A stretch of DNA of 64,000 nt from Heterodontus francisci (lineage: Eukaryota), in the NCBI RefSeq assembly GCF_036365525.1, contig NC_090390.1, positions 56,650,153 through 56,714,152 on the forward strand. Direction: 5' to 3'. The translations under genes were made by a program, and so were the position numbers. The notes under the pieces were generated by a model. The model saw only the letters and a program-made list of their open reading frames with translations. It searched no databases and had not been told where the DNA came from. Position 1 is the first letter of the stretch, and the number at the start of each line of letters is the position of its first letter. Of this stretch, positions 33,094 to 62,350 are shown in pieces.

Positions 33094-33762
<669 letters not shown>

Positions 33763-33795
33763 TTAGAAAGGATAATGTGCTTAAAGATCCCTTAC

Positions 33796-34090
33796 CTTCT
33801 GTCCTTGGAAGATGAACCCCCGATGACAGCGTGCAGGGGTACCACCAGGCGGGGGACCTCTCCAGGTAATGCGCCGGGAGCGCAAACCTCTGTGCCGGGA
33901 TTTCAAACCTTGGGAAGCCGGGCTCCCTGCAGTGAGGTAAGGAAAAAGTAGCGCCTTCAACCACCCCTTTCACCGCCGAAAGCAAAGTCTTAGGCTTCGA
34001 AGGCTTTCGATCACAGTTCAGCAGGTTTTTGATGGAGAAGGAGGACTCTTTGGGCGCAATGGGACTCTCCTGTGCTGCTGTCTCGGGCAT
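33796..34090 (-). CDS. HMX3: HMX3 exon 1 (coding part)
   Basis: Kozak GCCACCATG; [12 protein letters not shown] (eh1), [27 protein letters not shown]; donor G|GTAAG; 295+605 nt gives 299 aa. Confidence 0.97.
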
Positions 34091-37500: not shown

Positions 37501-40315
37501 TTATAGATTGATGCTTGAGGTAAAAGGCTACTATGAAAGGACATGTAAACGTTTATTTATGATACCTTGTTTCTGATTTGAATTACCCCGACTCCTGGAT
37601 TCTTTTTCATGCATCATTTTACGCAGCTTTTCTTCCATTATATGTTGCTTTAAGGAATTTGTCCCCTTCTAGATTGAGTAAAGCAGTATTTACATATAAA
37701 GAGCAATGCAAAGTTCTCAAATCAGTCCAGAGTCATATCTTTGAAAACAAGGGTTCATACATGCTAGCGATTAAGTCACAATAGCTTAAAGTGTATATCA
37801 GAATTATGCAATCGCCGGTATACTGTAAGAAAGTTAAGCATAATTGATTGTGAATTCTATGAGAACTTGGTAAAACATTAATCTGGTGTTCACTTATAAA
37901 ATCTTGAACCGAACCAAAGAGAATTAACTGGATATTTATTATTAAATGTTATACAAATGCTACAGCAGCACTCAAACAATAAATTAAATAATTATGCTTA
38001 AAAACATTATTAACAGACTTTGATTCGGCTCCTTCTTTGAATGCGGCAATTAGCGGTTAGAAAGAAACCATTACACATCTAAATTGGACAGTGATTTTTA
38101 AGCAGCCACCTTCTTATTAATTACATGACTTTCACTAAAGGAATGCATTGTTCTCTCTGATGTTGCTTGGAGATCACGTTCGTCCCTCTACTGTGTAACA
38201 AACTGATTTTTTTTTGCTAATTATTTGCCTTCAGGTTATGGGCAGATAGATCAGAGAGGTACACCTTTCGAGGTCTTAAAACAACCCCTGAGGAGAAGAC
38301 ATCAGAAACCGCGAACATGTCCATCAGGGCAGTCAATCTCTCTGACAGCAGATACTTATCATCAGGGAGCTCCTTTGTAATATGAAGTCTTGAAACAAGA
38401 GATAAACGAGCTGCTTGATACTTTAGGTGTTGTCCCTGAATGTTGAAGGCTTATATCGTTTTAGGGAATGATTTTTTTCCCCTTCTGTTTCTTTTCAGGT
38501 TCTTTTTAAAGAGATGACAATCACGTCACTAGACAGAAACAGAAGTATGCCAAGGGCAATTAACCTTTTGCCTGCTGCAGTGAGAGTTTGAAACCACACC
38601 TCGGAATTCTATTTTTCTTCGGTGTTCTGTAAGCAGAGAGTTGTCTCAGAGAAGATCTGTTCGTTTGGCATAATCATTCTCTCACAATTCGGGATAACTT
38701 ACTTTGTTTAGTCGGCAGAAAAGCGGTTTGGGGAAAAACACATAATTAGTTCTCACAGTTAAAGTAACGTTAAGAATGGTAAACCCTTCGCTTTTCTCAG
38801 CTTTTCTCAGAAACCATTCATAAACGTTGTGTTCAGGAGCAAGTTGCTCGATCACTTCTGACCGAAGAAATACTACAGATGGGAGTGGTTGAATGATTCA
38901 TAATTAACTTAGGGTTGTGTGCCGAACGTTTCCTGTACAGCACCCCCTGTCGATATATATTTTATCACCATTTCTTCAAGCAATGTACAGGTCAACAGCA
39001 CGCATTTCTGCATTTTTATTGCAACAGCAAAACCTGGCATAAATTCATTTTTTGTTTTTGTTGGGAACAACATAGCAAAAACATATATCCAGTATTAACC
39101 GAAAGAAAACTTTCAGATTCACACAACAAATCGTATCGGAGCACAAAAAAATGTATAATTCTGCGATGGCTGCTTTTATGAGACTGGAGGGTATTGGATT
39201 TGTCAATCTTCAGGCCTGTATTGGATTTGTTATTTTTATCATTCTATTTCTTTATGTTACATTCGGGTTAATTCCAAGACGCCAAAACAAGAGAGTAATC
39301 ACTCTGTATTCAGCGCTGATTTAAAAAAAACATCATTCTGTTAAATTCTTAATATACACGAATTGACGATGACAATTACAAGTGCTCGGAGACGATCACG
39401 ACAGAAATTGGAACCCCGCTTTCCAACTTAATATTATGTATGAACGAAAATGAGGCCTGCATTATTAAACTTCTGAATCATTTTATAACACCTGTAATTA
39501 AAAAGAGGGAGAACTAGCATCCATTTATATAATTCCTCAGATGGTGTTATCTACCTCTAGATTGTTTTTAAGCAGGTGTCGGGAAATTAGTTAGTAAAAA
39601 GAAATACATCAGATTTTAACGCCAGGAGCCAACAGTCTGTTTTCAACATCATAATTTTAAGAATGAAAGCAAGATGGGATGTACACGCAAAGCTGAAACA
39701 AACTCAGCTAGCGAATGACTAAATTGCAATCTGCGTTAGTAATATTTCAGTTCAGATACATTAAAAGCAAGCTGGTTTGAGTGAAGGAAAGAAACAAGGC
39801 TGAAACAAAGCCCAGCCTCTTCAGAATGTTTTTGGAAAGTCGGGGTCTTATTTTTCTAAGCAAACATATCAGTAAACCTGATAAATTACACAGAAGTGTT
39901 TGTTTATACAAGTCTGGTATTAAGAACCCGCTAGAGAGAGACTTGTGCCCTTTCTGACTGCTTGATAAAGTTGTTGGAAATCAAGCTACAATTGATGCTA
40001 GAAATGGGGAAAAAACACCGCGGATCTGAAATATAAACAGGAACTGCCGGAAATCCATCGCAAGCCTGTCTGGGTTACAGACTACATTTATAGCAGTTTC
40101 TGATTTTGTTACAGTAGATGTCATGCTGTACCAATCTTAACCACTGGACGTATCATCAGTGGGATCTACATTGCACTCAAATATAGTTTACTGTCTTACA
40201 CGTTTTGTTTCAAATGCAGAAGCTATTATGGTTTAAACTGCTGGTGTGAATGTTGTCAAATTTTCAGACCAGCCAGGTACCAGTACCCGATGACTGTGGC
40301 AGTAACTTTTTAGTA

Positions 40316-40519
40316 TAATAAAAACAAGAAATGCTGGAACCACTCAGCAGGTCTGGCAGCATCTGTGGAAAGAGAAGCAGAGTTAACGTTTCGGGTCACT
40401 GACCCGAAACGTTAACTCTGCTTCTCTTTCCACAGATGCTGCCAGACCTGCTGAGTGGTTCCAGCATTTCTTGTTTTTATTTCAGATTTCCAGCATCCGC
40501 AGTATTTTGCTTTTGTTTT
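40316..40519. mobile_element. Young Penelope pLTR-derived insertion forming a perfect 165-bp palindrome
   Basis: Arms 40317-40398 and 40400-40481 are exact reverse complements; 15-bp TSD AGTAACTTTTTAGTA at 40301-40315 and 40520-40534; sequence matches the pLTRs of the GIY-YIG elements at 44 kb and 50-52 kb. Confidence 0.92.
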
Positions 40520-43304
40520 AGTAACTTTTTAGTACTTTGTCAAATTGATCTGATACCATCTATTTAACATTTCCAACGATTCTGTTCTGTTAATATTAAA
40601 CGCTGCGTGCAGGCACGAGTGTTCAGTTGAAACAACAGCAACACAACTTTTATCTCTCCTGAATTTTCTGCTCATTTTAAACATTCACAGAAAAAGACCT
40701 ACCAGTTTTGGAAGACAAGGCAGAATTGCGAAGACGTATTTTGTCAATAATAACGTGCCAGCATCTGCACAGTTAAATATGAACGATTCCAAGCTATAAT
40801 ATTCATCATCATAATTATGAAAGGTTCAGGAATGCTGTTGATAACCATGTCATAATTCCTTTATCCGCAAAAAAGCAATATCCGACCAAAACAATTTTCA
40901 GACTGTGTGAATTATTAAATATTATTGCATTATCATGCTCGGTCATGATGAATGCTCCAAATGAAAGCTTTGAATCATTGTATAGTGGGCGAATGTGTAA
41001 CGGAGAGAATGCTAACCTTGATATAATTCTAGATAATTTATCCAAGTCCAAACGTTCGGTAGCACAATGGCATCAAACATTGGACGGTAGATGGGCTCTT
41101 TGTTCATTGTTACAGAGTAGTTTGCACCAGAAAGTAAACAATCCTGACTTCGTCAGTGACAGTAGCAAAATATACGCTCTCTGAAATATTATTGATGTGA
41201 GATTTGTTCATTTAGTGTTGGTAGCCCAAGAGACCGCTCCCCAAAACGCTACCGTAAATGTGACGCATAGCTTGTGACAATAAGCTGCGCCAATACATAT
41301 GGTGCGTATAATTTCTGGCTCGATTTATAGTGGAATCGCCCACAACATGGTACCAATATTTAGTGGGGAAACAGTGTTTTCTCTTTTGTCCCTCTTTGGT
41401 TGTACTTGTACACGTCAGTTTGGCTCGTTTGACTTTCATTGTTTTGAAGTTCCCTCAAATGTATGATTAAACTTTTATTCAGGATTGGAAAGGACTGTTA
41501 TAAAAGTATACAATAAGAAAGATGCTTGTCTTCAAACATATATTAGAGCGCAGTGGTTCTCTTTACCTCGGCACATGCATCTATTGCTCGGTCTGTCCAA
41601 TCTGTTGATACCCAGACATTTGCCAAACACTTAATACATGTCATTAATATCTTACTCGTGAGCTTTCTCTTAATGAGAAATCAAACCAGACCCTGCTCTG
41701 GCCTCAATTCTGTAAATCGAAAGGTTGGTCCTGTACCCAGTGACCTGCTTCCAGGGGCACTTATTGACGAATCTTTAAAAGGATTTAGAAAAAGATACAA
41801 TTTGGAAAGCAATGAATCTCGGATTGTATTAAAACTGGAGGTGTATAAACCGGGCCATTATCTTGACACTCTAGCTTAAATCCAGCTGTCTATAAAAGGT
41901 GTAGTGTAAAGCTGGCTGAGTAAGTGTTTAGGTCTCAAATCGTTTTTGTGACGGAGGTGCAATGAAAAACCAACAGCTCGAACGCAGGACGCACTAATCA
42001 CTGTTAAATGCTGATTGCCATACTAGGTAACACGTCCTAAACGTTGCTTTAGTCCAGATTTGTACCATTTTATATTCGGTTAGGTAGGTAAATTAATACA
42101 ACCCAGTTGCATATGATTTATTGCATAAAGCACGTAATTTTAAAAGTATAAAATATTTAACTAAAGTTAAATGGAACATTTACTCTATTTAATTATAGAA
42201 CCGCGGCCTCTCTTCCGCTATTCACATTCGAATACTGAGAACAGACAAGCTGTTCGTAATTTCGGAAATTTGCCTGTTTAATATTGAGTTCTGCATAAAT
42301 TCAATAGTAAATATTTGTTCGTTGTATTACATTGTGTTTAGGAAGAGATTGCTTGTAACACGTTTCGTGTAATATGCATTCCTGATATCTGTACTCTTTA
42401 ATATAACACCAGTTTATTAAACAGTGCAATATCTTATCAAATGTTTCATGTGTAGCTTATGATCTCGCGGCCTTCTCAGAAACCTTCACCCCAATCTGAG
42501 CAATTATTCAGAGTTACCAGAATAATAAGCATAGTTCTTACAGCCTGTATGGAGTCTGTGGTAACACCGTTCTGACTATTATGGAACCTAGAGTACTTTG
42601 CAATATATTCTGCCATGAAAATTGCAAGGGATAAAGCGTCGAGATAGAAAGGAAGGATACAACACTACAATAATGGATCAACATGTTTCTTTCAATTTAA
42701 CTTGCCTGCGTTTTAATCAATGTTTTTAACCACAACAAACGTGAATTCCACAAATCATCAAACTGGTTTACAAACAAGGAAAGTGTATGCTGTTTTCAGA
42801 ATTCATTGGGAAACGGTAAGAAAAGCACTGTGAGTGACACTCAGTACTTCTGAAAATATATAAATGGTCCACTGGCACCAGTTGATGGCGCTACAATTCA
42901 CTGCACCAGGTTGAACCTTATTTGCATGATTTTATCTTCCGCACGAACATTTAAAAGTATATAAATTAATTTGGGAAACTTCATTCATAGGATTGTCATT
43001 CACAATGATTGTTTGGTATCTAGTCCAATACACCATATCCCTCTTGACTGTACATACAGATTTCTAATTGAACTGGAACTTAAAATATGTCTTATGAAGT
43101 GTCACTGTTATTGACTCCTCCATCAAGCTGTCGCCTAAAATTATCATTATCTATTAGTTTATTCCTGTCTTTTATGCTGCTTTTTGCTTGGTGGTTGCTG
43201 GTGATGGGGAACTGGCTAAGCGATGGCTCTGACCCATAAAAATGAGGGAGATAAGTGAATACGAATAGTGGAAGCTGAGGCCCTGGTGGATTCATGGTTA
43301 CCCA

Positions 43305-60224: not shown

Positions 60225-62350
60225 CATAGAGTCATGGAGCCATTACAGCACAGAAGGAGGCCATTCAGTGCATCAGTTCCATGTCAGCTCTCTGTGTGGC
60301 AATCCAGTCAGTCCCAGTCCCCTGCTCTGTCCCCATAGTCCTGCAAGTTTATTTCCTTCAAGTGCCCAACCAATTTACTTTTGAAATCATTGATCAGCTG
60401 CACTTCATCACCCTCATAGGCAGTGAGTTCCAGGGCATTACCTCTTTCTGCGTAAAAAAAGTGCTTCCTCACATCTCCCCATATCTTTTGCCCAAAACAT
60501 TAAATGTGGGCCCCCTAGTCCTTGTGTGATCAGCTAATGGGAACAACTTTTCTTTGTCTCCCTTATCTAAAACTGTCTTAATCTTGTCCCCTCAATCTTC
60601 TTTGCTCCAAGGAGAACAACTCCAGCTTTTCCAACCTAATCTTGTAGCTAAAATCCCTCAACCCTGAAACCATTCTGGTAAATTTCCTCTGTGCCCTGTC
60701 AAGGACCCTCACATACTTCTTAAAATGTGGTGATCAGAAATGGATGCAATGCTCTAGTTGTGGCCTAACCAGAGATTTATAAAGGTTCAGCATAACTTCC
60801 CTGCTTTTGTACTCAATACCGCTATTTATGAAGCCCAAGATGCTTTGCTAACTAGTCTCTCAATATGTTCTTCCCCCTTCAAATGAACCCATGAACCCCC
60901 AGGTTCCTCTGTTCCTGCACACACTTTAGAACAATGCCATTTAGTCGATATTGTCTTTTCCTATCCCTTCTGCCAAAATGCATCACCTCACACTTCTCTG
61001 GAGTAAATTCCATCTGCCATTTCTCTCGCCATTCTGCTAGCACATCTATGTCCTGTTGCAGTTGATTGGTATCATCCACACTGTTATCACACCTCGAAGT
61101 TTGCTATCATTTGCAAATTTTGACATTTTACTCTGTATTTCAATATCTAAGTTATTTATACCTATCAAAAAACAAGTAGTCCTAGCACTGACCCTGGGAG
61201 AACACCACTACTGTCTGAAAAACAACCATGTACAACTCGCTGTTTTCTGTCCTTAAGCCAATTTTTTATCCAAGTTGTCATTGGCCCTCCTATTCCCTGA
61301 GCCTCAGTTTGATTAACCAGCCTTTTCCGTGGTACTTTGTTAAACATTTTCTTAACATCCATATAGACAACATCTATTGCATTCCTTTCATTAACCTTTG
61401 TTACTTCATCAAAAAAATCAATTAGATTAGTCAAACATGATTTGACTTTTACAAATCCATACTGGCTATCCTTAATTAACTCAAACCTCTCCAAGTGCCT
61501 GTTAATCTTTTCCATGATTATTGTTTCTAAATCCTTACCCACCACTGATGTTGAATTAACTGGCCTGTAGTTGTTAGGACTATCTTTAAACCTTTTCTTG
61601 AATAGGGGTGCCGCATTTGTCACTTTCCAATCCTCTGGCGCCTCCCCCATATCTAGGGAAGATTGGAAAATTATGGCAAGCCCTTCTGTTATCTCCACCC
61701 TCACTTCTCTTAGCAACCTGGGATGCAGGCCATCTGAACCAGGTGACTTATCCACTCTAAACATAGCCAGCCTTTCCAGTACATCCTGCCTGTCAATTTC
61801 ATCCCATCCATTACCTCTACCATCTCTGCTTCTACTGATATGTTGTTCCCATCATCTTCCTTAGTAAACATTGATACAATGTACTCAATAAATATTCTAG
61901 CCTTGCCCTGCGCCTCTAAGCCTCTTTTGTCCCTAATAGGCCTCAGCCCACCTCATACCACCCACTTACTGTTTACATACCGGTCAAAGATTTTTGACAC
62001 TAATACAACAGCAAAATATTGCAGATGTTGAAATCTGATGAAAGGCCATTGAGCTGGAACATTAACTCTGTTCTCTCTCCACAGATGCTGCCAGACTTGC
62101 TGAGCATTTCCAGCACTTTTTGTTTTTAATTATAGAAGATTTTTGAGCCCTTTTATGTTAACTGCCATTCTATTCTCATATTCTCTCATTACCAGTCTTA
62201 TTTTCCTCTTTACTTCCCCTCTCAACTTATTGTATTTGGCCTGCTTCTTGCTTTACGGATTCACATGACATGCATCATACACCTGCTTTCCTTGTTTCAT
62301 ATTCTCTATCTCGCTCATCATCCAAGCAGCCCTGGCTTTGGTTGCCCTAC
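60225..62350 (-). mobile_element. CR1 LINE (RT and 3' end) nested in Copia gag
   Basis: KSPGSDGLHPRLLRE...PEDWK...NYRPV...QYGFVK.KSCLTNL; (ATAGAGTC) tail at 60225. Confidence 0.9.
61998..62135 (+). mobile_element. Penelope pLTR mini-insertion with a short inverted 5' piece
   Basis: 11-bp TSD AAGATTTTTGA at 61987-61997 and 62136-62146; inverted pLTR end joined at TCTGA to a decayed hammerhead. Confidence 0.75.

What the first reader, a model, noticed from the sequence alone, without database searches (positions are those of the whole stretch)
40301..40534. Perfect 165-bp palindrome whose axis is a hammerhead-ribozyme stem-II loop
Seen: two 82-bp arms are exact reverse complements around one C (40399), bounded by a 15-bp TSD, so this is a single, apparently recent insertion ~6 kb upstream of HMX3. 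The centre GGGTC-ACT-GACCC-GAAACGTTAACT equals stem II, GAAA and the cleavage segment of the hammerhead motif in the other pLTR copies; the CUGANGA half has been replaced by the mirror arm. Established: Penelope-like elements carry minimal hammerheads in their pLTRs and often have inverted 5' ends. Inference: the cDNA stopped at stem II, folded back on that hairpin and self-primed, so the ribozyme structure set the inversion point. The product could extrude a cruciform or give an 82-bp dsRNA hairpin (Dicer/ADAR substrate) within a developmental locus.
Basis: partly seen in the sequence, partly recalled or inferred. Interest (0 to 1): 0.7.

Follow-up and report, generated by a model that had tools for sequence, protein, structure and literature searches.

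The report
Twin-primed Penelope hairpin stub, shark
This perfect 165-base DNA palindrome is one of over 13,000 head-to-head stubs of a Penelope jumping gene in this genome, at least 434 of them with the same centre; it was likely built from two DNA copies, started one from each cut strand and joined at the ribozyme's small hairpin, rather than from one copy folding back.

Summary
Real but common. The arms (82 bp, 1-nt centre), the 15-bp TSD and the minimal-hammerhead stem II at the axis are confirmed; only the right arm carries the 38-nt Penelope tail. The parent is a 3.29-kb RT/GIY-YIG Penelope-like element. The genome holds 13,245 such head-to-head insertions, 434 with this exact centre; those examined have their own target sites, so this is a recurrent event, not a MITE or an artefact. 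Stem II is a hotspot but not the main one. In 41 of 49 sampled junctions an arm stops at the 5' edge of helix I, likely the RNA start, and a run-off junction (520 loci) outnumbers this one. There the tail sits on the shorter arm in 57 of 68 cases, which one cDNA folding back cannot give. Best reading: two cDNAs, primed at the two tail-bounding start sites and joined through stem-II microhomology. Fold-back is not excluded for this centre class. Duplicated copies show the centre flipping after insertion (2 of 4 pairs). No evidence of an effect on the HMX gene. The layout is published; the scan reached a twin-priming reading before on other DNA.

The parts
40301..40315 (+). left target-site duplication, 15 bp
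   Evidence: D4, 100% identical
40317..40398 (-). inverted, tail-less arm (element positions +20 to +101; +1 = A of TCAGTT); its outer end lies at the upstream 3'-end site of the family
   Evidence: 40316 is one extra base
40393..40405 (+). hammerhead stem II (6-bp inverted repeat with a 1-nt centre at 40399): the junction, shared by both arms
40399..40481 (+). direct arm (+19 to +101) with GAAA (40406-40409), the palindromic ACGT and GUU triad (40409-40413) and the helix-I 3' strand AACT (40414-40417)
   Evidence: min-HHR features from PMC4209133
40482..40519 (+). 38-nt Penelope tail, on one arm only; the first bases of the right TSD (AGT) continue the element sequence (3-nt microhomology)
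40520..40534 (+). right target-site duplication
33094..34090 (-). neighbouring HMX-type homeobox gene (two coding exons; HMX3 by recall); context only, start codon 6.2 kb from the insertion

Best explanation
This is a young, dead-end insertion of an abundant Neptune-like Penelope element, likely made by twin priming: both strands of a staggered cut were likely extended on the start of one element RNA, and the two cDNAs were likely joined head to head through the self-complementary stem II of the hammerhead. Steps. (1, shown) The element is a 3,290-bp RT/GIY-YIG unit whose hammerhead and tail lie just 5' of the ORF of the next unit. (2, inferred) The RNA begins at about +1, the 5' edge of helix I, so priming at either end of the tail gives short cDNAs that run off there. 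(3, inferred; the in vitro precedent is a different element) The staggered cut, which becomes the roughly 14-bp TSD, gives two 3' ends: one primes at the tail end (about +135 to +142), the other about 38 nt upstream (about +100). (4, inferred from polarity) The upstream-primed cDNA usually leads and reaches the RNA end, while the tail-primed cDNA trails. (5, inferred) Two cDNAs of the same sense can anneal only through inverted-repeat sequence. Stem II is the longest such sequence near the RNA start, so it acts as DNA microhomology and not as a ribozyme. (6, shown in 2 duplicate pairs) The centre can invert later.
For: Known layout with a tail on one arm only: 45 of 49 sequentially sampled junctions and 50 of 50 loci with this centre. 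Tail-less ends also terminate insertions with no mapped inverted arm: 22 of 61 rows end at +97..+109, and 7 of 18 tested have a TSD. PMC11167929 reports two RT start sites bounding the tail, and extension of both strands, for an anole Poseidon element (parts 1-2 of 4 read). Run-off: 41 of 49 junctions have an arm ending at -3..+8, and 13 of 49 have both arms there, only 3 of these with 4 nt or more of overlap; 23 of 61 simple rows also stop there. Polarity: in junction B (520 loci) the tail is on the shorter arm in 57 of 68 classified loci (70 examined; p 1.3e-8 against 50:50). Later flipping can only move polarity toward 50:50. L103 has a tail arm of +97..+141 and an inverted arm of +4..+102 with a 15-bp TSD; L130 has a tail arm to -37 and a tail-less arm to -837. 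In 4 of 109 scorable insertions the arms differ at two subfamily-diagnostic sites. Loop-less centres, which offer no hairpin loop to fold back on, also occur (49 and 17 loci).
Against: For this centre class the loop base is on the tail arm in 26 of 50 loci. That is uninformative, because centres flip after insertion. At this locus it is on the tail arm, as fold-back predicts. A cDNA ending at +13 is predicted to close the stem-II hairpin at its 3' end. The arms share the subfamily haplotype in 101 of 109 insertions, which fold-back also predicts. Polarity is not significant in the mixed sample (20 against 11, p 0.15) or in junction C (12 against 5, p 0.14). The RNA start is not shown: the site TCAG|TT is both initiator-like and 3'-splice-site-like. 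PMC8557442 ascribes the tail to EN-mediated resolution, and PMC3846280 reads junction palindromes as self-priming (passages read). Pfam RT and GIY-YIG scores are below the curated cut-offs.
Confidence: 0.68

Rival explanations
1. Fold-back self-priming: the tail-primed cDNA stops at stem II, folds on the 5-6-bp hairpin and copies itself. It would operate for this centre class alongside twin priming elsewhere, and later centre flipping would erase the polarity.
For: Stem II is strongly preferred among symmetric centres (434 against 49 and 17). The cDNA hairpin is predicted. The arms mostly share a haplotype. The loop is on the tail arm at this locus. 20 of 49 junctions have an arm ending in stem II. 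L070 and L082 carry a few extra bases that could be a short self-copy at stem II.
Against: It predicts the loop on the tail arm always; observed 26 of 50, so it needs near-complete flipping in young loci. The tail-less arms of this class mostly end at the same site (about +100) as insertions with no inverted arm. L192, of this class, has arms of two different haplotypes. It cannot explain junction B polarity, L103 or L130.
Confidence: 0.17
2. Post-insertion collapse: the insertion began as a longer twin-primed palindrome. The two copies of self-complementary stem II form 13-nt direct repeats, and a later deletion between them left this centre.
For: It predicts either centre base at equal frequency (26:24). 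These palindromes do rearrange in place. Longer double-run-off palindromes exist as precursors (13 of 49).
Against: Loci with this centre do not look older: 28 unshared rare variants in 42 insertions against 22 in 24 for junction B. By eye, 1 of 100 listed matches is of the older TG-type on both arms, against about 15 of 100 for junction B. No duplicate pair with one long and one collapsed centre was seen among 4 pairs.
Confidence: 0.11
3. A ready-made palindromic non-autonomous element (MITE-like) amplified as a unit, or an assembly fold-back artefact.
For: 434 loci share the exact centre, and palindromes are prone to assembly error.
Against: Outer ends, TSDs, subfamily haplotypes and centre orientation differ from locus to locus. 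The arms carry unshared mutations. Junctions form a continuum. Short-read contigs, probably of the source sample, cross both insertion boundaries here.
Confidence: 0.03

Closest known systems
Typical EN+ Penelope-like insertion with inverted 5'-truncated pLTR, one-sided 30-40-bp tail and TSD (Pen2a_Av, PMC3846280; PMC8557442 Fig. 2 legend; passages read)
   Same: Head-to-head arms, a tail on one end, a TSD, and a palindrome at the inverted junction.
   Different: Here both arms are minimal stubs with no ORF. The copy number (13,245) allows junction statistics, and these favour two cDNAs over the self-priming proposed in PMC3846280.
Poseidon element of Anolis in vitro (PMC11167929; parts 1-2 of 4 read)
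   Same: Two RT start sites bounding the tail, extension of both target strands, a predicted dimer, and HHR cleavage not needed for insertion.
   Different: A different clade; in the parts read, inverted products and how they are joined are not described.
Minimal type-I hammerheads of metazoan PLEs (PMC4209133; parts 1-2 of 4 read)
   Same: Short helix I, an extra nucleotide before stem II, G10.1-C11.1, palindromic 15.2-16.2; motifs in opposite strands 100-700 bp apart were already noted there.
   Different: The young subfamily has CCGAAGA (U4C) and a GUU triad. This locus lacks the 5' core half, so it cannot form a ribozyme.
L1 twin priming (recalled, not read)
   Same: A second target strand primes on the RNA and gives an inverted 5' segment joined by microhomology.
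   Different: In L1 the segments do not overlap. Here the arms usually copy the same region, from two fixed start sites.
Template-switch spacer inversion between inverted repeats (PMC8604942, abstract)
   Same: Centre inversion in place (L161/L162, L221/L222).
   Different: Arm homogenisation is not evident here: rare variants are mostly unshared.

Membership tests
EN+ Penelope-like element | Single ORF with RT and C-terminal GIY-YIG endonuclease in the parent | tested here: met
   Open frame of 924 codons stop to stop in L296; RVT_1 E 6.4e-6 and GIY-YIG E 0.0018, both below the gathering cut-offs
EN+ Penelope-like element | Tandem or partial-tandem units forming pLTRs | tested here: met
   Tandem units of 3,290 bp (L296) and 3,296 bp (L295)
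EN+ Penelope-like element | Inverted 5'-truncated copy, one-sided 30-40-bp tail, TSD | tested here: met
   This locus; 45 of 49 sampled junctions
Neptune clade | CX2-5CxxC linker between RT and EN | tested here: met
   CNRRRCNTC in the ORF; criterion from PMC8557442 passages, where a similar linker is also given for Nematis
Neptune clade | Phylogenetic placement of the RT | not tested
   No reference set at hand; no tree built
Minimal hammerhead ribozyme (parent pLTR) | Helix I 4-5 bp, extra nt before stem II, G10.1-C11.1, GAAA, palindromic 15.2-16.2, NUH | tested here: met
   AGTT/AACT, A, stem II, GAAA, ACGT, GUU (criteria)
Minimal hammerhead ribozyme (parent pLTR) | CUGANGA core | tested here: inconclusive
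   40 of 58 copies read CCGAAGA and 12 read CTGANGA; no Rfam match; the monomer MFE fold is not the hammerhead
Minimal hammerhead ribozyme (this locus) | Complete core on one strand | tested here: not met
   The 5' core half and the helix-I 5' strand are absent on both strands
Minimal hammerhead ribozyme (parent pLTR) | Self-cleavage activity | not testable with these tools
   No genomic footprint of cleavage: 2 of 49 junctions at +33..+37 and 1 of 61 simple rows at +30..+38
MITE | Fixed termini and uniform copies amplified as a unit | tested here: not met
   Variable outer ends, haplotypes and junctions
miRNA precursor | Rfam gathering score; processed small RNA | tested here: not met
   Best hit mir-3202 at 63 bits against a cut-off of 90; small-RNA reads not available

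The most novel reading that the evidence does not exclude
These stubs record a polarised, overlapping twin-priming reaction. Two RT subunits start 38 nt apart on one capped RNA; the upstream one runs off the 5' end while the tail-primed one follows by displacement; and the hammerhead's conserved stems, uncleaved, supply the microhomologies that join them. That would explain the inverted pLTR and the one-sided tail of Penelope-like elements in one step. It would also make this element a factory of thousands of palindromes whose centres keep flipping in place.
Probability: 0.45. Interest if true: 0.6.

Novelty: new member of a known kind. Interest (0 to 1): 0.36.

Why it matters
The locus itself is ordinary: about one such inverted insertion per 450 kb, so lying 6 kb from a gene needs no explanation. 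The family matters more. How Penelope-like elements make inverted 5' ends with a one-sided tail is unresolved, and the published suggestion is self-priming at junction palindromes. Thousands of young copies make this countable, and the tail polarity of junction B argues for two cDNAs with a leader and a trailer. The duplicate pairs show that centre orientation cannot be read as a record of the insertion, and they offer a natural assay of spacer inversion in a vertebrate germline.

Tried and rejected
Loop orientation as proof against fold-back (15:15, then 26:24): dropped once duplicates showed post-insertion flipping. Apparent non-overlapping L1-type inversions (L032, L051, L130): these were BLAST splits at a low-complexity stretch, and the arms overlap; for the same reason the long 5' breaks are not true positions. 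The first automated junction mapping over-extended several arms and was replaced; one duplicate, L162, was dropped from the 50. Apparent duplicates L336/L347/L209/L206 were not counted as flips; they look like separate insertions in one host repeat. Hammerhead cleavage at an upstream GUC as the source of the +1 end: the triad is absent in several copies and the pairing is weak. Untemplated G as a cap signature: seen in a few copies (L086, L090) but mostly confounded with TSD microhomology. Empty site: none among the listed joints of runs X1 and X4 (115 joints not shown); X9 and X10 do not cover the flanks. Expression: no RNA holder listed; contigs of runs guessed to be RNA cannot show starts, and one joint ending at +1 could not be interpreted. 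Wholesale gene conversion between arms: rare variants are mostly unshared. Paper searches that found no description of twin priming in Penelope elements: by listing; one search found no shark study. The library lacks most subscription papers, and no supplements were read, which may bear on the in vitro paper's inverted products.
Full report
Observation. The palindrome is as described: 82-nt arms at 40317-40398 and 40400-40481, one central C, and a 15-bp direct repeat at 40301-40315 and 40520-40534. It is the only perfect palindrome with arms of 12 bp or more in the window. The insert is 204 bp and asymmetric, because the right arm continues into a 38-nt tail. Older copies in the window show the full motif: helix-I strand, CTGATGA, an extra A, stem II, GAAA, CGTT and AACT. 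This matches the minimal hammerhead described for Penelope pLTRs (PMC4209133, parts 1-2 read). The axis is the stem-II loop. The young subfamily mostly has CCGAAGA (40 of 58 copies). Rfam finds no hammerhead. A homeobox gene starts 6.2 kb away; HMX3 is my recalled label.

Parent element. Long copies carry an RT and GIY-YIG ORF with a CNRRRCNTC linker. Tandem units of 3,290 bp have a 924-codon open frame, with the hammerhead and tail just 5' of the start codon. The Pfam scores are below the curated cut-offs. The linker is Neptune-like by the criterion in PMC8557442 (passages); no tree was built. The genome is 6.0 Gb; 'shark' is my inference from the repeat sequence. I number positions with +1 at the A of TCAGTT, just before the hammerhead core.

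How common. One 29-mer from the arm has 23,352 exact matches. Head-to-head pairs with a gap of 150 nt or less number 13,245. The exact centre of this locus occurs 434 times. The 30 loci printed have different flanks and outer ends, most with a TSD of about 14 bp; all 50 classified have a tail on one arm only. This excludes a MITE and makes an artefact very unlikely. Short-read contigs, probably from the source sample, cross both boundaries here, though none spans the centre. The layout (inverted truncated pLTR, one-sided tail, TSD) is the published typical one (PMC3846280 and PMC8557442, passages).

Where junctions fall. I took the first 50 head-to-head insertions on contig C1 (49 after dropping one duplicate; long-armed cases are excluded by the search). 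In 41 an arm ends at -3..+8, and in 13 both do. In 20 an arm ends within stem II, 3 have this exact centre, and 2 end at the cleavage site region. Among 61 rows with no mapped inverted arm, 23 break at -3..+8 and 2 in stem II. Exact genome-wide counts, from patterns of similar length but not identical stringency: run-off joined to the 3' half of stem II, 520 (junction B); stem-II loop, 434; run-off joined to helix I, 80 (junction C); loop-less 6-mers, 49 and 17. These are the longest inverted repeats of the region. So the main determinant is a stop at the 5' edge of helix I, which I infer to be the RNA 5' end, and stem II is the strongest secondary hotspot. The RNA start could not be shown, and the site also resembles a splice acceptor.

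Fold-back or two cDNAs. A fold-back copy cannot contain what its template lacks, so the arm reaching further 5' must carry the tail. In junction B the tail is on the shorter arm in 23 of 28 and 34 of 40 loci: 57 of 68 classified, of 70 examined out of 520, p 1.3e-8. The 70 were the first 30 listed, 20 picked as near neighbours and 20 more in order. Junction C goes the same way without significance (12 of 17), as does the mixed sample (20 against 11). L103 has arms of +97..+141 and +4..+102, and L130 has a tail arm to -37 and a tail-less arm to -837, both with TSDs. Tail-less ends also close insertions without an inverted arm (22 of 61 rows; TSD found in 7 of 18). This matches the two RT start sites and the extension of both strands reported in vitro for an anole element (PMC11167929, parts 1-2). 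The arms share a haplotype in 101 of 109 insertions, suggesting one RNA or one source locus; 4 differ at two diagnostic sites. Rare variants are mostly unshared, so the arms are not being homogenised.

A caveat found on the way. Duplicates L161/L162 differ in the centre base. L221/L222, identical at 2,917 of 3,021 columns, differ by an inverted spacer. Two other pairs are not flipped. Spacer inversion by template switching is known (PMC8604942, abstract). The 26:24 loop orientation of this centre class therefore cannot decide the mechanism. Fold-back, or a later deletion between the two stem-II copies, remains possible for this class and this locus. Flipping cannot create the reversed polarity of junction B.

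Consequences. The locus cannot form a ribozyme, as the 5' core half is missing. A transcript would fold into a very stable hairpin (-158 kcal/mol predicted), but no expression evidence was obtained. With one such insertion per roughly 450 kb, nearness to the homeobox gene is unremarkable. No empty allele was among the listed joints.

Novelty. Self-priming at junction palindromes is the published suggestion. My searches found no paper on twin priming in these elements, in an incomplete library and without supplements. I held the twin-priming reading before consulting the scan. The scan's unchecked notes reached it repeatedly on other DNA and gave the lead to PMC3846280. None of the notes returned described centre flipping in these elements. 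Verdict: a real, young and ordinary member of a known insertion type. Interest 0.36.

Noticed in passing
L161/L162 (G000:C1:20052912 and 20061486); L221/L222 (G000:C1:226570747 and 228997269): Duplicated copies of one insertion differ by an inverted centre (1 nt, and about 17 nt) while flanks and arm-specific mutations stay in place; two other pairs (L225/L226, L254/L255) are not flipped.
   Followed up: yes
L147 and L150; L070 and L082; L061 and L100: The same complex junction with a short templated-looking insert recurs at unrelated loci, suggesting RT slippage at the RNA end.
   Followed up: partly
element position -2 to +4 (L080:3939-3945): The run-off site is both initiator-like and 3'-splice-site-like; in D. 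virilis the intron end maps to the 5' end of helix I (PMC4209133).
   Followed up: partly
L080:3262-3942: A joint ending exactly at +1 appears at high depth in contigs of three runs guessed to be RNA and is not listed for the DNA run; it may be one expressed genomic copy.
   Followed up: no
L295, L296: Tandem full-length units; L296 has an uninterrupted ORF, so the family is probably still or recently active.
   Followed up: partly
window 61999-62131: An older head-to-head copy of the same kind (short tail arm, tail-less direct arm) lies in this window; older copies with ORF remnants lie near 44-45 kb and 50.9-52.4 kb.
   Followed up: partly
and listings: Stem-II-centred perfect palindromes are almost all of the young subfamily (1 of 100 old-type) unlike junction B (about 15 of 100); perfect palindromes may be lost with age.
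   Followed up: no
L336, L209, L347: Independent-looking insertions at nearly the same position of another abundant repeat suggest a target-site preference.
   Followed up: no
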